Notes under the pieces: generated by a model
Databases searched by the model: none
What the model saw: only the letters and a program-made list of their open reading frames with translations
Told to the model about the DNA's origin: nothing
Assembly: GCA_016283935.1 (NCBI GenBank)
Contig: JAEENX010000013.1
Span: 97,759 to 161,758 of the forward strand
Source of the DNA: Bacilli bacterium
GTDB lineage: Bacteria > Bacillota_I > Bacilli_A > RF39 > UBA660
DNA length: 64,000 bases
Reading direction: 5' to 3'
Shown here: in pieces, positions 2,592-25,367 of the stretch
How positions within the stretch are numbered: the first letter of the stretch is position 1
Layout of the letters: the number at the start of each line of letters is the position of its first letter
Translations under genes and position numbers: made by a program

Positions 2592-4166
2592 CTATTTAAC
2601 TTCTATTTTATCATCAAATAAACTTTCAGCTAATGAAACTGTATCAGCAGTTTCATTAACATACTTGTCTTCCTTCATGATTTTGTATACTTTATCTTTA
2701 TCAAAATTACTTAAAAGATCTTTCCAGTCTTTTTCAGTAATAAATATTAATTTATATTTAGTATTGTTTATTTCATTAAATTTATTTTCAATTTCATATA
2801 ATTTGTTATTACCTACTAATTTAACAGATTCGGATTTTGAAACTAATAGGATATTATTATCAGAAGCAACTTGAACCATTGTCTTCCCAACTAACAAATT
2901 AAACTCTTTAAGTTTCATATTATTAATTTCATCCATAAATTTAATCCATAAATCATGGCATGTTTGTTTGTAGTCTTTAGAAGCATTAACAAACGAATTG
3001 TTTATTCTAATATTAATAAATTCTTCACACATATTATAATGAGTATTTTTATCTATATATTGTTTTACATCTACTTGACACTTATCATCGATTATTTCCC
3101 GGGAAATAATTTGAGATATTTCGCGACTACTAAGTTTAGTTTCATCATCATTAATAAATGATATAAGTTCTAATTCTAGCATTAAGAAACCATTAGATGA
3201 ATAATTCAATTTACCAGATATATCATTTAATGATTCAATAAGTTTCTTTATTTGATTAAATGCTTGTGTTGATAAATTTCTTTTCTTCATATCAACTGCT
3301 TTATCTATATAACAATCCAACATTTTGTTGATAAGTATTTTTATATCAATACCTGTTAACTTTATATTGTTTAAACTATTAACAAGAGTATCAATATCAT
3401 TATGCAGTATATTGTTATATAGTTCATTAATCTCATCAGTTGTTACAGTACCATAATTGTTTTTGATTACATCAATATCAATTTTGTCAGAAGCTTTTGA
3501 TAGTTGATCTAAAATACTTAAAGCATCTCTCATACCGCCATCAGACAAATAAGATATTTCTTCTAAAGCTTCATCAGAAGCTTTAATTCCTTCAGACTTA
3601 CATACTTTCTTTAAATTATCCACTATTCTATTTCTATCTATTCGTCTAAAATCCAAACGTTGACATCTAGATAAAACTGTAATTGGAACATTTTGTACAT
3701 CTGTAGTTGCTAATATAAATACAACATATTCAGGAGGTTCTTCTAGAACCTTTAGAAAAGCATTCCATGCACTTTTTGAAAGCATATGTACTTCATCCAT
3801 AATATAAACTTTATATTTCATAAATGAAGGTGCAATCATAACCTCTTCTATAATATTTCTAATATTATCTACACCAGTATTAGAAGCAGCATCAATTTCT
3901 ACTATATCAGGAGAACTATTAAAGTTTTGGCATGCAGCACATTCACCGCAAGGAATTCCATCTTTCGGATTTTCACAATTAATAGTCTTAGCAAAAATTC
4001 TTGCACTACTTGTTTTACCTGTACCACGAGGCCCTGTAAATAAATAAGTATGAGCTAACTTATTTTCTATTACAGAATTTTTTAATAGTCTAACGATATG
4101 ATCTTGCCCCATTAATTCATCAAAATTACTAGGTCTATATTTTCTATATAAAACTTGATAGTCCAT
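2592..4166 (-). CDS. dnaX: DNA polymerase III subunit gamma/tau (DnaX)
   Basis: N-terminal YRKYRP..F.E..GQ, Walker A GPRGTGKTS, zinc module CGECAAC, SRC motif (LSRCQRL). Confidence 0.9.
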   Translation of the reverse strand: MDYQVLYRKYRPSNFDELMGQDHIVRLLKNSVIENKLAHTYLFTGPRGTGKTSSARIFAKTINCENPKDGIPCGECAACQNFNSSPDIVEIDAASNTGVDNIRNIIEEVMIAPSFMKYKVYIMDEVHMLSKSAWNAFLKVLEEPPEYVVFILATTDVQNVPITVLSRCQRLDFRRIDRNRIVDNLKKVCKSEGIKASDEALEEISYLSDGGMRDALSILDQLSKASDKIDIDVIKNNYGTVTTDEINELYNNILHNDIDTLVNSLNNIKLTGIDIKILINKMLDCYIDKAVDMKKRNLSTQAFNQIKKLIESLNDISGKLNYSSNGFLMLELELISFINDDETKLSSREISQIISREIIDDKCQVDVKQYIDKNTHYNMCEEFINIRINNSFVNASKDYKQTCHDLWIKFMDEINNMKLKEFNLLVGKTMVQVASDNNILLVSKSESVKLVGNNKLYEIENKFNEINNTKYKLIFITEKDWKDLLSNFDKDKVYKIMKEDKYVNETADTVSLAESLFDDKIEVK

Positions 4167-4241: not shown

Positions 4242-4655
4242 TCATCTTACATTTTCTTTAAAAAAAGTACTAAGCATGTTTTTATATGTTTCACGTGAAA
4301 CATCATCTTCAACTTGATTAATAATAGTAGAATTATATTTGTTTTTATTATCTCTTTCTAATAAAAAATATATATTATCTACCCTACTTGCTTTAGCAAC
4401 TTCTAGGCACATATCACATGGATATAAGCTAACATAAAGATCACATCCATCTAATCTCCAATCATTTAGATTCTTTTCAGCTTCTCTAATAGCTATTATT
4501 TCAGCATGATTAGTTACATCCGGTGTATTTAATCTATCATTATGTCCCCTACCTATAATTTTATTATTTTTAACCACTATAGCTCCTATTGGAATGTCTT
4601 TATTATCATAAGATATTTGTGCTTCTTTTATTATTTCCTCTATATATTCATTCAT
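4242..4655 (-). CDS. tadA: tRNA-specific adenosine deaminase TadA
   Basis: CDA-fold motifs HAEIIAIREA and PCDMC. The ORF-track start (4733) would read through the SRP RNA gene. The ATG at 4653-4655 (MNEYIEE) has a GAGGT RBS and gives a 137-aa protein. Confidence 0.85.
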   Translation of the reverse strand: MNEYIEEIIKEAQISYDNKDIPIGAIVVKNNKIIGRGHNDRLNTPDVTNHAEIIAIREAEKNLNDWRLDGCDLYVSLYPCDMCLEVAKASRVDNIYFLLERDNKNKYNSTIINQVEDDVSRETYKNMLSTFFKENVR

Positions 4656-4672
4656 AATTACCTCAATAAAAA

Positions 4673-4749
4673 AAATGCGCACACGATTAGTGAATGTTAT
4701 GGCTGCTGTGTTCCCACTCTGACCAGGTTCCAATATAACCGTTGCGCAA
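4673..4749 (-). ncRNA. ffs: Signal recognition particle RNA. This is the minimal 4.5S/scRNA type of about 77 nt.
   Basis: Minus-strand sequence UGCGCAACGGUUAUAUUGGAACCUGGUCAGAGUGGGAACACAGCAGCCAUAACAUUCACUAAUCGUGUGCGCA followed by U8. It contains the domain IV signature UGGUCAG...GGAA tetraloop...AGCAGCC, closed by a GCGCA/UGCGC terminal stem. Location between tadA and dnaX matches scr placement in Firmicutes. Confidence 0.8.
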
Positions 4750-4752
4750 AAA

Positions 4753-4781
4753 TATTATAACATATCCTATAAATTAATCAA
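4753..4781 (-). promoter_or_regulatory. Putative sigma-A promoter of ffs
   Basis: On the minus strand, TTGATT (plus 4776-4781), a 16-nt spacer, then TATAAT (plus 4753-4758), ending about 6 nt before the SRP RNA 5' stem. Confidence 0.4.
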
Positions 4782-4803: not shown

Positions 4804-5192
4804 ATGTTTCACGTGAAACATAAGAAGTAATAAATATTTAAATTAAGGATAAATAATATGTAAATAATTAGATTTAAAAATAATAAATATATATCATAAA
4901 CAAATATTAATGTTTCACGTGAAACATTATAAAAATATAAATATTAAAAAAGAAAATAATAGGTCACTTTTCAAAATATAAAAGAGCATTAATTATCAAA
5001 AATAATTCAGTTTAAATGTATAAAATAGGGAAAATCAATAAAAAAATGTTTCATGTGAAACATTACAAAAATATAAATATAAAAAACAAAGTAATAGGGT
5101 ACTTTTTTTGAAATAAAAAGCATTAAATATCAAATGAACCAGCTTAAAAGTAAAGAATAGGGAATTGATAAAAGATGTTTCACGTGAAACAT
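4804..5192. repeat. Array of a perfect 18-bp palindrome inside diverged tandem units of about 105-135 bp
   Basis: ATGTTTCACGTGAAACAT at 4804-4821, 4910-4927 and 5175-5192; a CATGTG variant at 5046-5063. The AT-rich units 4928-5045 and 5064-5174 are about 75% identical. A fifth copy lies at 4286-4303 inside the tadA 3' end. Confidence 0.75.
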
Positions 5193-5218
5193 AAAAAAAG
5201 AAGCTATTAAGCTTCTTC
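5193..5218 (-). terminator. Rho-independent terminator of gyrA. The stop codon sits in the loop.
   Basis: Minus strand GAAGAAGC-UUAAUA-GCUUCUUU followed by UUUUUUU. Confidence 0.55.
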
Positions 5219-7840
5219 TTTATTTTCATTTACAATTTTGTCAAATGAAGTAGGGGACTCATTAGAATTTTCTGATGTTGATAACTCAGAATCTTCTTCA
5301 TCATCTTTGCTTGTTAAAGAAATTGTTGAAACATATTGATCTTCTTTAAGATTAATTAATCTTACACCTTGAGTTACACGTCCTAATTGAGAAATAGATT
5401 CAACTGTAATTCTAATAATCATACCAGATTCAGTAATAATTAATAAATCTAAATCATCAGTAACATTTTTGAATGCTACCATTGGACCGTTCTTTTCAGT
5501 AATATTAATTGCTGTTACTCCTTTAGATCCACGCTTAGTTAATCTATATTCTGATAATTTAGTTTTCTTTCCATAACCATTCTTAGTTACTATTAAGATA
5601 TTATCATCATCATGAGCTACATCCATACCTAAGCATTCAGCTCCATCAAGGTTAATACCTTTAACACCTGACGCAGTTCTACCCATAGGTCTTACATCAT
5701 TTTCGTTAAATACAACCATTCTACCAGCAGATGAACCTAAACAAACGTTATATGTACCATCTGTTAATAAAACATCTATTAATTCATCATTATCTTTTAA
5801 TGTAATAGCAATCTTACCAGTTTTTCTTATATTATCAAATTCTTCAATTGGAGTTTTCTTAATTAAACCTTGTTTAGTTGCAAAGATTAAGAATCTAGCA
5901 TCGTTATCACGAGAAACTCTAATAACTGAACTTATTTTTTCATCTTTTTCTAATTGAAGTAGGTTAATAATAGGTAATCCTTTAGATTGTCTACTATATT
6001 CAGGAATTTCATAACCTTTTATACGATATGTTCTTCCTTTATTAGTAAAGAACATAATATGATCATGAGTTGAAGCATTAATCAAGAATTTAACGTAGTC
6101 TTCTTCGTTAGTTGACATACCTTTTACACCAACGCCACCTCTGTGTTGAGTTCTATATGTATCAGTAGTTAATCTCTTGATATAACCCTTATCAGTTAAT
6201 GAAATCATAATATTTTGTTCTGGTATTAATGATTCATCTTCAATGAAATCAATAGCTGTCATATCAATGTTAGTACGTCTTTCATCACCGTATTTACGTT
6301 TGATTTCAAGCATTTCATCTTTAATAATACCTAATACTCTTGATTCATTAGCTAAGATATCATGATAATCAGCAATCTTTTCAGCTAATTCTTTTAATTC
6401 ATTTTCAATTGCATCTCTTTCTAATCCAGTTAACTTACCTAATCTCATATTTAAGATATCAGTTGCTTGGATATCGCTTAATGCAAATCTAGACATTAAT
6501 TCAGCTTTAGCAATTTCTTCAGTAGCACTATTTCTAATAATATGTACAACTTCATCAATATGATCTAAAGCAATACGTCTACCTTCTAAAATATGAACTC
6601 TATCTTCAGCTTTGCCTAATATATATTTAGTTCTTCTAATAATAACTTCTTTTTGATAATCAATATATTTAGAAATAATTGATTTCAATCCTAAAGTACG
6701 AGGAACACCATTATCAAGCATTAATAAGATAATTCCATAATTTTTTTGGAAATCTGTATGTTTATATAAATTATTTAAAATAACTTGAGCATTTGCATCT
6801 CTTTTTAATGTAATAGTGATTTTAACACCATTTTTTAAATCTGTATGATAATCAGATATACCATCTAATACTTTTGAATGAACAAGTTCTGCAACTTTAT
6901 TCTTTAATTCTAATGTATTTGTTCCATATGGAACTTCAGTAATAACAATTTGTTGTTTATTATTTTCTTCTATAATTTCAGCTCTAGATCTGATAGTAAT
7001 AGAACCTCTACCAGTTTCGTAAGCTTCAATAATACCTTTATTACCTAATATAACACCGCCAGTAGGGAAGTCAGGACCTTTAATATATTCCATTAATCCT
7101 CTAGTATCAATTTCAGGATTATCAATATATGCAACACATCCATCAATAACTTCACCTAAATTATGAGGTGGAATATTAGTTGCCATACCAACCGCAATAC
7201 CCATAGTACCATTTACTAAAATGTTAGGGAAGCGGGAAGGTAATACAGATGGTTCTTTCTTAGTAAAATCGAAGTTATCATCCATATTTACTGTATCTTT
7301 ATCTATATCTCTTAACATTTCAAGAGATAATTTAGATAATCTTGATTCAGTATAACGCATGGCTGCTGCGCCATCACCTTCGATATTACCAAAGTTACCA
7401 TGGCCATCAACCATTAAATATCTTTGGTTAAAATCTTGTGCCATTCTAACCATTGCTTCATAAATTGAACTATCACCATGTGGATGGTAATTACCCATAA
7501 CGTAACCAACTGTTGTAGCTGATTTTCTATGAGGTTTATCAGGATATAAACCAGATTCATTCATTGCCCATAAAATACGTCTATTAACAGGTTTTAAACC
7601 ATCTCTTAAGTCTGGTAAAGCTCTAGCAGTAATAACAGACATAGAATATTCTAAGAATGAAGTACCAACTTCATCTACAATGTTATTTTCTTCTAATGAA
7701 TCTCTTTCATGGAAATATCCATTAAATTCACTATTATGAATATCTAATGCATTATTTTCTTCATTGTTGATATCTGTTTGGTTTTCAACAGTTTCTTCTA
7801 CTTCTTCAGTAGTTTCAATATTCTTATTTTCTTCTTCCAC
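5207..7840 (-). CDS. gyrA: DNA gyrase subunit A
   Basis: [17 protein letters not shown], active-site region and C-terminal beta-pinwheel repeats. The N-terminus is unusually acidic and the C-terminal tail is Glu/Asp/Ser-rich. The true start within the first ~45 codons is uncertain. Confidence 0.9.
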
Positions 7841-10988: not shown

Positions 10989-11438
10989 TTAGGCCTCTTT
11001 TTTTCTTAATAAAAACTCAAATCTACTAGCTTTTAATATTTGATTCTTTAATGACCAAATTGATTCTTTAAAATCTATTTTATTTCCATTTGTTAATTCT
11101 ATAACAGAACAATTATTTTTATCATTAGAATATATATTATTTATAGATTTTAAATTCAACCATGATACATTATTTACTCTAGGAGAACAAGTAGGGAAGA
11201 ATACTATATTATTCTTACTTTTAACTAAAATAGGAGTTTTATACATATTTCCAGTCATATTTCTATAATAATTAACCCTAATATCATATGAACTACCATC
11301 TATTTCACAATTATACTTAATAATATTATTTGGTTTATTGTTGATAACTATCATTTTATCAACTTCATATACTACTGAATTTTTATTACCCATAGGTAAT
11401 ATAGCCAATGTATTATCAGTAATATTATACTTATTCAT
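10989..11438 (-). CDS. ComK-family protein (putative competence transcription factor)
   Basis: 149 aa with ...AILP..., ...IDGSSYDIR..., KTPILV and IVFFPTCSPR...W. These parallel the ComK hallmarks as I recall them: VLP, FFGSSY, KPPIMV and IFLFPTLSS..W. Assigned from memory of ComK only. Confidence 0.55.
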   Translation of the reverse strand: MNKYNITDNTLAILPMGNKNSVVYEVDKMIVINNKPNNIIKYNCEIDGSSYDIRVNYYRNMTGNMYKTPILVKSKNNIVFFPTCSPRVNNVSWLNLKSINNIYSNDKNNCSVIELTNGNKIDFKESIWSLKNQILKASRFEFLLRKKEA

Positions 11439-12791: not shown

Positions 12792-14201
12792 TTAAATCTT
12801 ATCTTTAATTTCTTTAATTTCATTCTTTAATTGTTCTGAAGTTTTTAGGTCTTCAGTAATTTTTTCTCTAGCATGTATAACAGTAGCATGGTCTCTATTA
12901 AAACTTAATCCTATTCTTTCTACTGTTTCATCAGTAGTCATAGTACATAAATATATAGCAACTTGTCTAGCTTTATTAATTTCAGCTTTTCTTTTCTTAG
13001 ATTTTAATGTATCAACAGTAACATTATAGTAGTCTGCAACGGCTTTCTTTATCTTTTCAATACTATTTTCAGTGTAATTATTATTATCTATATCATCTTT
13101 TAAGTACTGTTGAGCAAATGCTAGATCTACCACTTCTGGTTGATACATCATAATCATTACATACAATCTATTAATAATACCTTCTAGATGTCTAACATCT
13201 GATTGGCTATTATTAGCAATATATTCTAATACTTCAGGCTTTATTCTATTGGCAGTTTCATGTCCTGCCATCTTATTATTAAGTATTTTAAGTTTTAGAA
13301 CAAAGTCTGGTGGGGATATTTGAGCTGTCATTCCCCAAGCAAAACGTGTTTTTAATCTATCCTCGAACTTTTGTAAGTCATCAGGACTTGTATCTGAACT
13401 AATAATTATTTGTTTTTGGAAGTTTCTAAATGCTTCAAATGTATTAAAGAACTCTTCCTGAGTCTTATCTGCAGATGCTAAGAATTGAATATCATCAATT
13501 ATTAATACATCTTTATCATAATATTTTCGTTTAAATGCTTCTAATAATGTTGTATTAGTGTTTTTATTTGAAAATATTTCTTGATAATCCTCTTTAAATT
13601 GTTTTGAACTAATATATAAAACTCTTTTATTATATTTTCTTTTAATTTCGTTACCTATAGCATGCATTAAATGTGTTTTACCTAAACCACTTTTACCATA
13701 AAGGAATAATGGATTATATAAAACACCAGGTTTATCAGCTACTGCCTTAGCACAAGTGTAAGCTATACCATTTTGTTCACCAACTACGAAATTCTCAAAA
13801 GTATAATTTGGATTCAAATTATCATTATAATCTGGAAAAACCTCATCTACTACGTTCATAATTGGTTGGTTTTCAACAATATTAGTAGATTCTAAAGGAA
13901 GTTGACTCATATAAGTATTATCTTCTTCCTTCTTCTTTGGTAATTCTAGTTCAGTTTGAGAAATTACTAATTCATATAAGTAATCTTTTTTAGTAACTTC
14001 TTTAATTTTTTCACTTATTAGATCGTCAAAATGATTTAATAAATGATTTTTCATAAATTCATTTTTTACTTGTATTTTAAAAGTATTATTATTATCTATA
14101 TCTACAAGGGTAGTATCTTTAAAGTATATATTATAAATCATTGTTGAAACTGATGACTCAATTCTAGATAGAATTTGAGCCCATAACTCATTGTTGTTCA
14201 T
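12792..14201 (-). CDS. dnaA: Chromosomal replication initiator DnaA
   Basis: AAA+ Walker A GKSGLGKTHL and the C-terminal DnaA-box-binding HTH (ETVERIGLSFNRDHATVIHA). The likely start is the MNNNELWAQIL Met at 14199-14201, not the upstream M of the ORF track. Confidence 0.9.
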   Translation of the reverse strand: MNNNELWAQILSRIESSVSTMIYNIYFKDTTLVDIDNNNTFKIQVKNEFMKNHLLNHFDDLISEKIKEVTKKDYLYELVISQTELELPKKKEEDNTYMSQLPLESTNIVENQPIMNVVDEVFPDYNDNLNPNYTFENFVVGEQNGIAYTCAKAVADKPGVLYNPLFLYGKSGLGKTHLMHAIGNEIKRKYNKRVLYISSKQFKEDYQEIFSNKNTNTTLLEAFKRKYYDKDVLIIDDIQFLASADKTQEEFFNTFEAFRNFQKQIIISSDTSPDDLQKFEDRLKTRFAWGMTAQISPPDFVLKLKILNNKMAGHETANRIKPEVLEYIANNSQSDVRHLEGIINRLYVMIMMYQPEVVDLAFAQQYLKDDIDNNNYTENSIEKIKKAVADYYNVTVDTLKSKKRKAEINKARQVAIYLCTMTTDETVERIGLSFNRDHATVIHAREKITEDLKTSEQLKNEIKEIKDKI

Positions 14202-14231
14202 ACTTCTCACCGCCCTGTTTTTATAAATCAA

Positions 14232-23301: not shown

Positions 23302-24447
23302 ATGAAGATGGAAGCACAAATAAGAATGATTCCAGTAGATCAAATTATCCCAAATAGATTTCAACCAAGACTAGAATTTGATCAAGAAGCTTTAAATACA
23401 TTAGCTAATTCCATCAAACAACATGGTATTATCCAACCTTTAGTACTTAGAAGAGTAGCAGATAAATATGAAATAATAGCAGGTGAAAGAAGATTTAAAG
23501 CATCTCAAATGTGTGGAATGATGCAAGTTCCAGCAATTATAACTGACTTAGATGATAATGAATCTGCAGAAGTTGCTATCATTGAAAATACACAAAGAAG
23601 AGAATTATCTGCAATTGAAGAAGCACAAAGTTATAAAAAATTATTAGATAGAAAATACTTAACACAAGAACAATTAGCTCAAAGATTAGGAACTTCTCAA
23701 TCTAACATAGCTAATAAGATTAGATTATTACAATTAGATAAAGCTGTACAAGAAGCTTTAATGAAAAATCAAATTTCTGAAAGACATGCTAGATCATTAC
23801 TAAGAGTACAAGATCCTAAGAAACAAGTTGAATTATTAAATAGAGTAATTCAAGAAAGAATAAAAGTAAGAGATTTAGAAAAAGAAATAGATAAAATATT
23901 AGGATTATATGATAATCAAAAAGCTGCAGTAGGTGGAATTAACATTGGTAAGGGTGATATAGATATTGAAACTCTTACTCAAACAGCTCAAGATATAACT
24001 CCTACATATGCAACTGATATTCCTATATATCAACATCAAACTAATAAAGAAGAAAAGAAACCAAAAAATAATACATTATTTGGTAATAAATTAGAAGATG
24101 AAGCAGCAAATATGGATTCATCTCTAGGATTTGGATTTAATCCATTCCAAACTCAAGCAGTAAATGGAGTTGGAGTTGGAGATGACTATGATCTTCTTGA
24201 ACTTGAAGATAATGATGATTCAGAAGAAACACAAGATGATACTCCTACACAAACTCCAACTGTTGTTAAACAAGTAGTACAAGATGAAAAATATGAAACA
24301 GCAGATGATGTAATAGCTGGAATAAAGAGAATCATGGATGCTTGTAAAGAATGCAATTTGGTAGTTTCTTCAGAAGAATTTAACTTTGATGAAGAATATC
24401 AATTTGTTATTAGAATACCAAGAGATGAAGAAGATACTAAGAAATAG
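23302..24447 (+). CDS. parB: ParB/Spo0J (or Noc) family partition protein. No ParA is adjacent.
   Basis: ParB box IIAGERRFKAS and an HTH (LTQEQLAQRLGTSQSNIANKIRLL). Long acidic C-terminal extension. Confidence 0.8.
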   Translation: MKMEAQIRMIPVDQIIPNRFQPRLEFDQEALNTLANSIKQHGIIQPLVLRRVADKYEIIAGERRFKASQMCGMMQVPAIITDLDDNESAEVAIIENTQRRELSAIEEAQSYKKLLDRKYLTQEQLAQRLGTSQSNIANKIRLLQLDKAVQEALMKNQISERHARSLLRVQDPKKQVELLNRVIQERIKVRDLEKEIDKILGLYDNQKAAVGGINIGKGDIDIETLTQTAQDITPTYATDIPIYQHQTNKEEKKPKNNTLFGNKLEDEAANMDSSLGFGFNPFQTQAVNGVGVGDDYDLLELEDNDDSEETQDDTPTQTPTVVKQVVQDEKYETADDVIAGIKRIMDACKECNLVVSSEEFNFDEEYQFVIRIPRDEEDTKK

Positions 24448-24499: not shown

Positions 24500-24832
24500 A
24501 TGAAATCACTTACATTTAAATTATATTCAAATAATAAATTAGAAATAGATGAAACATCTAATTATTTTATTAAAGATGATATATTAAATTTTAAGATAGA
24601 TAAAGATACCTATAAATTAGACTTAATAACAAATAATTTAGTTAAAACTAATCATGAATATACTATTGATATAAATATAGCTAAAAAGCTTGTTTTAATA
24701 GCTTTAAATGGGTATACATTTGAAATGAATATAATTAATCATTCTGTTAAGAAAGATGGTAATAATATTGAAATAGAATATACCTATGAAGGTGAGGAAA
24801 TAACTAATAATAAAATAATAATAAATTATTAA
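24500..24832 (+). CDS. Small hypothetical protein, possibly a DUF1934/YwiB-like beta-barrel
   Basis: 111 aa from the ATG at 24500. TGCTATAAT extended -10 and RBS upstream. The DUF1934 assignment is weak. Confidence 0.35.
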   Translation: MKSLTFKLYSNNKLEIDETSNYFIKDDILNFKIDKDTYKLDLITNNLVKTNHEYTIDINIAKKLVLIALNGYTFEMNIINHSVKKDGNNIEIEYTYEGEEITNNKIIINY

Positions 24833-24911: not shown

Positions 24912-25367
24912 ATGGCAAAATTAAGCTTAACTAGTGAACAACTTGAAACTATGTCTTATGGAGACGTAGCAGCTTATGTATTAGAACAAAAAGGAAAAAA
25001 ACAAAAAATCCAAGATTTATTTAAAGAAGTAATTAGATTAATGAATTTACCAGAAAGTGATTTCGAAAATCATATCGCAGATTTCTTTCAATTATTATCA
25101 ACAGATATGAGATTTACTATGGTAGAAAAAGGATACTGGGATTTAAAAGTTAATCAAAAACATAAAGTAATTGTTGCATCAGATGATGAAGAAGATGAAG
25201 AAGAATTAGAAGTTGAAGAAAATGAAGAAGAATTAACAGACGAAGAAGATGATTCTGAAATCAACTATGATGATGACGATTTAGATGATGATCCTGAGGA
25301 AGATGATTTTAAAGATTTAGTTATAATTGATGACTCAGATGAAAATGGTTCAAATCAAGAAATATAG
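24912..25367 (+). CDS. rpoE: DNA-directed RNA polymerase delta subunit (RpoE)
   Basis: N-terminal HARE-HTH-like domain (MSYGDVAAYVLEQKGKKQKIQDLFKEV...MRFTMVEKGYWDLK). The C-terminal poly-acidic tail (DEEDEEELEVEENEEE...DDDDLDDDPEEDD) is diagnostic of Firmicutes delta. Confidence 0.7.
   Translation: MAKLSLTSEQLETMSYGDVAAYVLEQKGKKQKIQDLFKEVIRLMNLPESDFENHIADFFQLLSTDMRFTMVEKGYWDLKVNQKHKVIVASDDEEDEEELEVEENEEELTDEEDDSEINYDDDDLDDDPEEDDFKDLVIIDDSDENGSNQEI

What the first reader, a model, noticed from the sequence alone, without database searches (positions are those of the whole stretch)
4804..5192. The 18-bp palindrome is nearly identical to the canonical parS centromere site
The consensus parS of Firmicutes and many bacteria is TGTTCCACGTGAAACA. 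The repeated palindrome here (T)GTTTCACGTGAAAC(A) differs by a single position from a perfectly symmetrised parS (TGTTTCACGTGAAACA). Up to five ParB-binding sites therefore appear clustered between gyrA and ffs, about 9 kb from oriC. The genome has an orphan ParB and no ParA. This would make the region the chromosomal centromere/ParB-loading array.
Basis: partly seen in the sequence, partly recalled or inferred. Interest (0 to 1): 0.65.

Follow-up and report, generated by a model that had tools for sequence, protein, structure and literature searches.

The report
Tandem parS centromere array beside gyrA
A tight tandem array of textbook parS centromere sites sits between gyrA and the SRP RNA gene about 9 kb from the replication origin and is kept across a whole clade of uncultured gut Bacilli, but the nearby "ParB" gene is a Noc-type paralogue predicted to read a different motif, so the protein that reads the array is not yet identified.

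Summary
ATGTTTCACGTGAAACAT occurs exactly at 4804, 4910 and 5175, with one C>T copy at 5046. A fifth exact copy lies at 4286, inside tadA and outside the stated interval. No other copy exists in 64 kb (shuffles expect 0.05-0.2). The core equals the symmetric consensus parS.

The four intergenic sites head three tandem units of 106, 136 and 129 bp. These fill the gap between the gyrA terminator and the ffs promoter, 9-10 kb from dnaA and the GC-skew switch. In 74 of 77 related species, 2-12 parS sites sit at this same spot. Spacers and copy number turn over even within a species, so the sites themselves are under selection. I read the array as a centromere-like loading array.

The protein at 23302-24447 is closer to Noc than to Spo0J. 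It carries the NBS-reading residues (Q173, K179, R201; invariant in 258 relatives). Exact NBS sites occur at window 3093 and, in many relatives, interleaved with parS. No ParA or canonical ParB was found in about 82 kb around oriC, nor in 80 relatives' gyrA loci. Whole genomes could not be searched.

The parts
4804..4821 (.). parS-1, an exact 18-bp palindrome ATGTTTCACGTGAAACAT. It starts tandem unit A (4804-4909, 106 bp) and lies directly upstream of the ffs promoter.
4910..4927 (.). parS-2, exact 18-mer. It starts tandem unit B (4910-5045, 136 bp).
5046..5063 (.). parS-3, with one C>T change in the central CACGTG (ATGTTTCATGTGAAACAT). It starts tandem unit C (5046-5174, 129 bp).
5175..5192 (.). 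parS-4, exact 18-mer. It abuts the T-run of the gyrA terminator.
4286..4303 (.). parS-5, exact 18-mer embedded in the 3' end of tadA, where the codons GAT GTT TCA CGT GAA ACA encode D-V-S-R-E-T. It lies outside the stated interval, on the far side of ffs.
   Evidence: A site at the equivalent place exists in L003, L167 and L168.
5194..5221 (-). Intrinsic terminator of gyrA (GC-containing hairpin followed by T7). It bounds the array on the gyrA side.
4754..4781 (-). Promoter-like site for ffs (TTGATT, 16-nt spacer, TG-TATAAT). It ends at the 5' end of the SRP RNA and bounds the array on the ffs side.
4668..4753 (-). ffs, the small bacterial SRP RNA.
   Evidence: RF00169, 55.3 bits, gathering score 40
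3093..3108 (.). Exact Noc-binding-site consensus TATTTCCCGGGAAATA inside dnaX, where the codons ATT ATT TCC CGG GAA ATA encode I-I-S-R-E-I. It is the predicted target of the Noc-type protein and is not part of the parS array.
   Evidence: Exact NBS sites lie about 2.2 kb after gyrA in many relatives (L003, L004, L005, L007 and others), consistent with this dnaX position although their gene context was not checked.
23302..24447 (+). The only ParB-family gene in the window (381 aa). ParB_N spans residues 6-98 and HTH_ParB 101-199, followed by an acidic linker and a conserved C-terminal segment of about 45 aa. It is Noc-type: Q-K-Q-R at the specificity positions, with no N-terminal membrane helix.
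12792..14231 (-). dnaA. The divergent dnaA / yidC-jag-mnmE-mnmG-rsmG arrangement and the GC-skew sign change place oriC at about 14.2-14.7 kb, 9-10 kb from the array.

Best explanation
The palindromes are genuine parS sites. Three tandem units of about 106-136 bp, plus a terminal copy and one copy embedded in tadA, form a dense centromere-like array. The array occupies the gap, predicted to be untranscribed, between the gyrA terminator and the ffs promoter, 9-10 kb from oriC.

Proposed mechanism (inferred from the known ParB family). A parS-specific ParB-family CTP clamp nucleates at each site and slides onto flanking DNA. This builds an origin-proximal partition complex that organises and segregates the origin region. 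It probably also loads SMC, and it may work without a ParA motor, as in pneumococcus.

That protein is a Noc-type paralogue predicted to load at NBS sites (window 3093; interleaved with parS in many relatives). A canonical R173-type ParB encoded outside the ~82 kb examined is the most economical reader.

What is shown: sequence identity to parS, non-randomness, position, tandem anatomy, clade-wide conservation with spacer turnover, and the Noc-type character of the neighbouring protein. What is inferred: protein binding, clamp loading, SMC recruitment, and the existence of a separate canonical ParB.
For: Exact consensus parS, four exact copies plus one 1-mismatch copy, none elsewhere in 64 kb; shuffles expect 0.05-0.21.

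Tandem-unit anatomy. The array is bounded by the gyrA terminator and the ffs promoter. Its origin-proximal position follows.

In 74 of 77 related species (GyrA 66-96% identical), 2-12 parS sites (median 5) lie within 3.5 kb after gyrA. Of 388 sites, 386 lie in arrays: 5.8 per kb there against 0.0014 per kb in 1.4 Mb of flanks. More distant lineages also carry parS just after gyrA: L091 (GyrA 67%) and L095 (57%).

Spacers, period (about 37-300 bp) and copy number differ between species. They also differ between strains of the window's own species, while the cores stay exact.

About 70 dnaA loci from other bacteria show only rare single parS and no NBS.

Noc-type assignment of the 23302 protein rests. 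Q173, K179 and R201 are invariant or nearly so in 258 family members. The published specificity code comes from PMC7383237.

Sites are bimodal. Of 511 sites, 383 are pure parS, 116 pure NBS and 12 other, with no site pairing a parS half with an NBS half. This fits two separate readers.
Against: No canonical ParB was found in any sequence examined: the 64 kb window, about 18 kb of extension, 80 gyrA-centred loci of relatives, and five loci centred on the Noc-type gene from four further relatives (L083/L084, L085, L169, L170).

In the four relatives examined around it (L083/L084, L085, L169, L170) the Noc-type gene follows rsmG directly, and no soj-spo0J is present there or in the window, where three genes separate the two. 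The ancestral Firmicute origin cluster does hold parA, parB and noc together (PMC8136486).

There is no binding data. Whole genomes could not be searched.
Confidence: 0.6

Rival explanations
1. The protein at 23302-24447 is the sole ParB-family protein of the genome and itself loads at the parS array. Since exact NBS sites are also conserved, it would have to read both parS and NBS, making it a natural dual-specificity ParB/Noc.
For: It is the only ParB-family gene in about 82 kb around oriC, in the window's species and in four relatives examined around the gene. soj-spo0J is missing from the ancestral origin cluster. It keeps the CTP-clamp motifs (GERRFKA, ENTQRRE). In 30 related arrays parS and NBS sit side by side, and 7 are strictly interleaved, which links the two motifs functionally. 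Position 184 is not the lysine of Noc but N/S/T/Q, so the interface is not identical to Noc.
Against: Q173 and R201 are invariant in 258 family members. In the deep mutational scan every parS-specific variant had R173, dual-specificity variants mostly had T or S at 201, and Q173 cannot reach guanine-1 of parS. The recognition helix is nearly identical to that of B. subtilis Noc in the NBS co-crystal 6y93. Noc's CTPase is not stimulated by parS DNA (PMC8429893). The sites are sharply bimodal with almost no hybrids: 12 of 511, and none with mixed halves. A relaxed single reader would not be expected to produce that pattern.
Confidence: 0.2
2. The palindromes are read by a protein outside the ParB family, or they act as DNA or RNA structures (terminators, recombination hot spot, mobile repeat) rather than as a centromere.
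For: No parS-type ParB was found in the sequence examined. The sites lie next to a terminator and a promoter. The array is a hypervariable tandem repeat in which several assemblies break (5 contigs end inside it).
Against: A 16/16 match to the pan-bacterial parS is very unlikely to be coincidence. gyrA has its own separate GC-stem and T-run terminator, and the parS copies lack T-runs. The repeats are not dispersed: none elsewhere in 64 kb, and 2 of 388 outside arrays in relatives. Rfam finds no RNA family other than ffs. No composite parS-NBS stretch occurs in 2.9 million viral contigs. The cores are conserved while the spacers are not, which points to a sequence-specific reader.
Confidence: 0.07
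3. The array is a decaying relic of an ancestral ParABS system and has no present function.
For: soj-spo0J is absent from the origin cluster.
Against: Exact 16-mers are maintained, and arrays of different period (about 37-300 bp) and copy number recur at this one spot in 74 of 77 species whose GyrA is only 66-70% identical. Architectures differ between strains while the cores stay intact. Neutral relics would have decayed in a 25% GC genome.
Confidence: 0.02

Closest known systems
Chromosomal parS / ParB (Spo0J) of Bacillus subtilis and most bacteria
   Same: Identical 16-bp palindrome, multiple copies and origin-proximal location. The expected mechanism is CTP-dependent clamp loading and spreading, with SMC recruitment (PMC7022226; PMC8429893).
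   Different: From my own knowledge, B. subtilis has about ten sites spread over hundreds of kb, one of them inside spo0J. Here 4-5 sites lie within 0.9 kb as tandem repeats (up to 11-12 in relatives), always just after gyrA. No parS-type ParB is encoded nearby.
Streptococcus pneumoniae incomplete Par system (orphan parB, four parS near oriC, no parA)
   Same: Four or five origin-proximal parS sites and no ParA in the origin region (PMC7022226). A CpsC/CpsD-like pair lies about 8 kb beyond the window. In pneumococcus CpsD is a ParA-like ATPase that cooperates with ParB.
   Different: From my own knowledge, pneumococcal ParB is a canonical parS reader and pneumococcus has no Noc. Here the only ParB-family gene seen is Noc-type, and the parS sites are tandemly arrayed.
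Noc-NBS nucleoid occlusion system of Bacillus and Staphylococcus
   Same: The 23302 protein is most similar to Noc and has Q173, K179 and R201. In relatives it sits directly after rsmG. Exact NBS TATTTCCCGGGAAATA sites are scattered through coding regions.
   Different: It lacks the N-terminal amphipathic membrane helix that nucleoid occlusion requires. It has N/S/T/Q instead of K184. It carries a long acidic linker, with family lengths of 227-744 aa. It scores below the curated Noc cut-off, 277.9 against 315. In many relatives NBS sites are concentrated next to parS in one origin-proximal array (1.05 per kb against 0.05 per kb elsewhere), an arrangement I found described in none of the papers read here.
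Plasmid tandem centromeres such as F sopC (12 x 43-bp repeats, each holding a 16-bp inverted repeat; from my own knowledge)
   Same: Head-to-tail direct repeats, each carrying one palindromic ParB-family site. Periods in relatives go down to 37-56 bp and copy numbers up to 11-12.
   Different: The array is chromosomal, uses the pan-bacterial parS rather than a plasmid-specific site, and has a period that varies between species. No adjacent parAB operon is present.
Dense chromosomal parS clusters (Corynebacterium glutamicum, Myxococcus xanthus, Pseudomonas parS1-4; mostly my own knowledge, partly)
   Same: Several parS sites concentrated near oriC act together as one partition region.
   Different: From my own knowledge, those clusters have about one site per 1-4 kb, scattered among genes. 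Here the density is about one per 100 bp inside a single intergenic gap, generated by tandem duplication.

Membership tests
Chromosomal parS centromere site | 16-bp palindrome matching tGTTNCACGTGAAACa | tested here: met
   Four exact copies and one 1-mismatch copy; shuffles expect 0.05-0.21. The core is identical to the parS oligo core in PMC8429893.
Chromosomal parS centromere site | Origin-proximal location | tested here: met
   9-10 kb from dnaA and the GC-skew sign change.
Chromosomal parS centromere site | Conservation of the sites, not of the surrounding DNA, in related genomes | tested here: met
   74 of 77 species have 2-12 sites right after gyrA; 386 of 388 sites lie in arrays; spacers and period diverge.
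Chromosomal parS centromere site | A cognate ParB with parS-type specificity residues (R173, small residue at 201) encoded in the genome | tested here: not met
   Not met in the sequence available. The only ParB-family protein in about 82 kb is Q-K-Q-R.
Chromosomal parS centromere site | ParB binding, CTP-dependent spreading, effect on segregation or SMC loading | not testable with these tools
   Needs ChIP-seq, bio-layer interferometry or genetics.
Complete ParABS system | ParA (Soj) Walker ATPase encoded with ParB | tested here: not met
   tblastn with B. subtilis Soj gives no hit in the window, in 80 gyrA loci or in 5 loci around the Noc-type gene. The only hit is a weak CpsD-like match in L166 (26% identity, E 3e-7). 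Pfam on about 50 window ORFs shows no ParA/CbiA domain.
Noc (nucleoid occlusion protein), for the gene at 23302-24447 | Closer to Noc than to ParB/Spo0J in sequence | tested here: met
   PDB chains: Noc 192-204 bits, Spo0J 158-162 bits. DNA-binding domain alone: 67-70 against 49 bits. nucleoid_noc is the best NCBIfam model.
Noc (nucleoid occlusion protein), for the gene at 23302-24447 | Reaches the curated NCBIfam TIGR04285 cut-off | tested here: not met
   277.9 bits against a cut-off of 315. Three relatives score 267-294.
Noc (nucleoid occlusion protein), for the gene at 23302-24447 | Specificity residues Q173, K179, K184, R201 (PMC7383237) | tested here: inconclusive
   Three of four are present and essentially invariant (Q 100%, K 99%, R 100% of 258). 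Position 184 is N/S/T/Q. Jalal et al. report that one lysine at 179 or 184 is enough to permit function.
Noc (nucleoid occlusion protein), for the gene at 23302-24447 | N-terminal amphipathic membrane-targeting helix | tested here: not met
   The ORF starts only 16 residues before the PNRFQPR motif and cannot extend further upstream. Query residue 6 aligns to Noc residue 26-29. 113 of 120 close homologues and 94 of 150 representatives have the same 16-residue N-terminus.
Noc (nucleoid occlusion protein), for the gene at 23302-24447 | Cognate NBS sites in the genome | tested here: met
   Exact TATTTCCCGGGAAATA at window 3093. 143 sites with up to 1 mismatch in the 77 related loci analysed, against none in about 70 loci from other bacteria.
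Noc (nucleoid occlusion protein), for the gene at 23302-24447 | Gene next to rsmG (gidB) in the origin cluster | tested here: met
   Directly after rsmG in L083/L084, L085, L169 and L170. In the window three small genes lie between them.

The most novel reading that the evidence does not exclude
This large clade of uncultured gut Bacilli has lost soj-spo0J. Its single, membrane-helix-less Noc-type CTP clamp reads both parS and NBS, and these are juxtaposed in one composite tandem centromere beside gyrA. That would be a natural dual-specificity ParB/Noc, a state that deep mutational scanning suggested evolution avoided.
Probability: 0.15. Interest if true: 0.8.

Novelty: new variant of a known kind. 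Interest (0 to 1): 0.55.

Why it matters
parS near the origin is textbook, and on that level the finding is ordinary. Three things are not ordinary.

1. The density and form of the array. It is a plasmid-like tandem array, one site per roughly 40-130 bp, fixed at the gyrA-ffs gap across an order-level clade. Its architecture turns over even within a species.

2. The composition of the array in relatives. In many relatives the same array interleaves exact parS with exact NBS. That would load the two paralogous CTP clamps side by side at the origin.

3. The missing reader. The only ParB-family gene in the origin region is a Noc-type protein without Noc's membrane helix, so the parS reader is unidentified.

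This gives a natural system for asking how ParB and Noc specificities coexist or merge. It also lets one ask what a Noc that cannot bind membrane does. Both can be tested with two purified proteins and two 22-bp oligos.

On the practical side, these arrays break short-read assemblies at a conserved place. They also mark the origin region in MAGs of this clade.

Tried and rejected
1. tblastn with B. subtilis Spo0J and Soj (sequences recalled from memory; the Spo0J DNA-binding domain matches PDB 6sdk) was run against the window, 80 gyrA loci, 80 dnaA loci and the extension loci. Only the Noc-type gene and one weak CpsD-like hit turned up.

2. Pfam on about 50 window ORFs, including ten unknowns at E up to 0.1, showed no ParA and no second ParB.

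3. Extending the window. Two look-ups failed because the ORF starts I chose were not the called starts. Two succeeded and added about 18 kb with no ParA or ParB.

4. Pairing arrays with the Noc-type gene on one locus, using a dnaA-centred metagenome scan. This mostly returned distant bacteria.

6. Looking in more distant family members for a retained noc-soj-spo0J cluster. Synteny was the same and soj-spo0J was absent.

7. A literature search for a described parS array at gyrA, or for interleaved parS-NBS, found nothing relevant.

8. Readings rejected:
- CRISPR-like array: the repeat is too short, the 'spacers' are homologous to one another, and there are no cas genes.
- Mobile or REP element: not dispersed, and none in viral contigs.
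- gyrA terminator: a separate terminator is present.
- Small RNA: Rfam finds only ffs.
- The two small genes after the Noc-type gene as partition partners: from the sequences, one resembles the RNA polymerase delta subunit, which is my own reading of the sequence. For the other, no Pfam hit was obtained for the overlapping longer ORF and none is on record for the called gene.

9. A simple DnaA-box scan did not give a clear box cluster. The origin position therefore rests on gene order and GC skew.

Full report
**Observation**

The 18-mer ATGTTTCACGTGAAACAT is present exactly at 4804-4821, 4910-4927 and 5175-5192. At 5046-5063 it carries one C>T change. A fifth exact 18-mer is at 4286-4303. No other match exists in the 64 kb, even with three mismatches allowed in the 16-mer. 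Dinucleotide-preserving shuffles expect 0.05-0.21 matches, and none of 100 reaches five.

It is identical to the symmetric parS core used as the standard oligo in ParB/Noc biochemistry (PMC8429893).

**Anatomy of the locus**

The genome has about 25% GC. Gene order on the minus strand is as follows:
- dnaA, 12792-14231
- dnaN
- a ComK-family gene
- recF
- gyrB
- gyrA, 5207-7840
- the array
- ffs, 4668-4753
- tadA
- dnaX
- ybaB
- recR
- holB

GC skew changes sign between 12 and 16 kb, so the array is 9-10 kb from the inferred origin.

The four intergenic sites each start a tandem unit (106, 136 and 129 bp, then a terminal copy). The units share 76% mean column identity.

The array fills exactly the gap between the gyrA intrinsic terminator (5194-5221) and the ffs promoter (4754-4781). 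It is therefore probably not transcribed.

The fifth site is not between gyrA and ffs. It lies inside the last 20 codons of tadA, where it encodes D-V-S-R-E-T.

**Comparative evidence**

A GyrA-based scan of one genome per species returned 80 loci from uncultured gut and rumen 'Bacilli/Tenericutes' MAGs, with GyrA 66-96% identical.
- In 74 of the 77 loci with at least 300 bp after gyrA, 2-12 parS-like sites (up to 2 mismatches, median 5) lie within 3.5 kb downstream of gyrA. Most are between gyrA and ffs; some lie on both sides of ffs.
- Of 388 such sites, 386 are in these arrays: 5.8 per kb against 0.0014 per kb in 1.4 Mb of flanking sequence.
- Spacing ranges from about 37 to 300 bp and copy number differs between species. 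Five contigs end inside the array.
- Two strains of the window's own species have spacings of 104/157/43 bp instead of 106/136/129, with exact cores.
- More distant lineages still have parS right after gyrA: L091 (GyrA 67%) and L095 (57%).
- About 70 dnaA loci from other bacteria show only rare single parS sites, one pair of them next to a canonical soj-spo0J.

Conserved cores with rapid spacer turnover at one fixed position argue strongly for a sequence-specific reader and a function.

**Who reads the sites**

The only ParB-family gene in the window is 23302-24447, with ParB_N and HTH_ParB domains. Several lines mark it as Noc-type.
- Against solved structures it matches Noc best: 203.6 and 202.9 bits for Geobacillus, 192.2 for B. 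subtilis. B. subtilis Spo0J scores 162.1.
- With the DNA-binding domain alone the gap is 67-70 against 49 bits.
- Its best NCBIfam model is nucleoid_noc at 277.9 bits. That is below the curated cut-off of 315; the generic parB_part model scores 174.5.

Jalal et al. 2020 (PMC7383237) showed that four interface residues set the specificity. ParB has R173-T179-A184-G201 for parS. Noc has Q-K-K-R for NBS. Q173 reads adenine-1 and R201 reads cytosine-6, provided a lysine is present at 179 or 184. Every parS-specific variant kept R173, and dual-specificity variants mostly had T or S at 201.

The window protein reads Q-K-Q-R ('GTSQSNIANKIRLLQL...SERHAR'). Across 258 family members Q173 is 100%, K179 99% and R201 100%, while position 184 is N/S/T/Q.

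The protein differs from Noc in two ways.
- It lacks the roughly 25 N-terminal residues that include the membrane-targeting helix. The ORF cannot extend upstream, and query residue 6 aligns to Noc residue 26-29.
- It carries a long acidic linker before a conserved C-terminal segment. Family lengths run from 227 to 744 aa.

It keeps the GERRxxA and ENxQRxxL CTP-clamp motifs. In four relatives examined around it, it sits directly after rsmG, with no soj-spo0J following. The ancestral Firmicute origin cluster holds gidB, noc, parA and parB together (PMC8136486).

**NBS sites**

An exact NBS consensus TATTTCCCGGGAAATA lies at window 3093-3108 inside dnaX. It is written with the GC-rich codons TCC CGG in a 25% GC genome.

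In the relatives, exact NBS sites are frequent. Some are scattered at recurring positions relative to gyrA (about 2.2 kb after it, where dnaX lies in the window). Unexpectedly, others sit inside the parS arrays: 1.05 per kb there against 0.051 per kb elsewhere. Thirty arrays contain NBS and seven are strictly interleaved. Examples are L061 with a 56-bp unit, L022 with 117 bp and L060 with 84 bp.

Among 511 sites fitting the shared ParB/Noc framework, 383 are pure parS, 116 pure NBS and 12 other. None pairs a parS half with an NBS half. This bimodality is what two separate homodimeric readers would produce.

**Search for ParA and a canonical ParB**

None was found in any of the following:
- the window (tblastn, and Pfam on about 50 ORFs);
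- about 18 kb of extension on both sides;
- the 80 gyrA loci;
- the five loci around the Noc-type gene.

The only ParA-superfamily signal is a weak CpsD-like match next to a Wzz-domain gene, about 8 kb past the window end.

**Interpretation**

Best-supported reading (confidence 0.6). The array is a genuine parS centromere-like loading array. Its reader is a parS-specific ParB-family clamp that is not the protein at 23302. That protein is predicted to load at NBS. A canonical ParB encoded elsewhere is the most economical reader.

Main rival (0.2). The Noc-type protein is the only family member and reads both motifs. The missing soj-spo0J and the juxtaposed motifs favour this. The invariant Q173/R201 and the lack of hybrid sites count against it.

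Minor rivals. A reader outside the ParB family, or a structural role, is unlikely (0.07). A decaying relic is contradicted by the conservation (0.02).

**Comparison with what is known**

The locus works like chromosomal parS-ParB, and like the ParA-less pneumococcal system with four parS near oriC. In form it resembles plasmid tandem centromeres such as F sopC (my own knowledge).

It meets the sequence, position and conservation criteria for parS. The criterion of a cognate ParB is not met in the sequence available.

The neighbouring protein is Noc-like but fails two defining Noc features: the membrane helix and the curated score.

**Novelty and interest**

The parS identity is already known biology. 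Three aspects are not described in any of the papers I found:
- the dense, hypervariable tandem array fixed beside gyrA;
- the interleaving with NBS in relatives;
- an origin cluster containing only a helix-less Noc-type clamp.

I rate this a new variant of a known kind, interest 0.55. The main uncertainty is whether a canonical ParB exists elsewhere. One HMM search of a closed genome of the clade would settle it.

Noticed in passing
window 3093-3108: Exact Noc-binding-site consensus TATTTCCCGGGAAATA inside dnaX, encoded with the rare GC-rich codons TCC CGG. Exact NBS sites lie about 2.2 kb after gyrA in many relatives, the distance at which dnaX lies in the window.
   Followed up: yes
L061 12485-12890; L022 12476-13077; L060 12670-13150; also L027 and L053: Tandem arrays in which exact parS and exact NBS alternate within one repeat unit (56, 117, 84 and 62-63 bp). 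Thirty of 74 arrays contain NBS. I found no description of such composite arrays in the literature searched.
   Followed up: yes
window 23302-24447 and proteins P0001-P0382: A large family of Noc-type ParB paralogues, with more than 150 clusters at 50% identity. They have no N-terminal membrane helix, an acidic/Pro/Asn-rich linker of very variable length (total 227-744 aa), and a conserved C-terminal motif ...GF.V..EE.DF...YQ..I.I.K.
   Followed up: partly
window 4286-4303 (tadA) and 3093-3108 (dnaX): Both coding-embedded sites are read in the same phase and encode x-S-R-E-x (DVSRET and IISREI). From memory, the parS inside B. subtilis spo0J encodes NVPRET.
   Followed up: partly
L006 12302 and 12344: Two hybrid sites TATTTCACGTGAAATA (NBS base at position 1, parS base at position 6) next to an exact NBS. 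This is the only species seen with this intermediate.
   Followed up: no
window 10989-11438 (-): A ComK-family gene sits between dnaN and recF inside the origin cluster. It is conserved at that place in relatives (L083, L085, L167, L169, L170).
   Followed up: no
L166 18875-20282 (about 7-8 kb past the window's right end): A Wzz-domain gene followed by a 248-aa protein with a weak Soj/ParA-superfamily match (26% identity, E 3e-7), then CpsB. This looks like a CpsC/CpsD-like tyrosine-kinase pair. In pneumococcus, CpsD cooperates with ParB.
   Followed up: partly
L016, L017, L044, L055, L057 (contig ends): Contigs end inside the parS arrays, so tandem copies break short-read assemblies. The true copy numbers are probably higher than counted.
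   Followed up: partly
window 24912-25367 (+) and 24500-24832 (+): Two small genes conserved after the Noc-type gene. No Pfam hit is on record for the called genes, and none was found for the overlapping longer ORFs. The 151-aa one has an N-terminal domain and a long acidic tail resembling the RNA polymerase delta subunit (RpoE); that is my own reading of the sequence.
   Followed up: no
L167 4815-7448: In one strain of the window's species, gyrA is called as two ORFs (617 and 170 aa). This is a frameshift or an assembly error.
   Followed up: no
L083, L085, L169 and L170, downstream of prfA/prmC: Sporulation genes lie in the origin region of relatives: SpoIIR in L083, L085, L169 and L170, and SpoIID in L083. 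This suggests that these small, AT-rich 'Tenericutes-like' Bacilli form spores.
   Followed up: no
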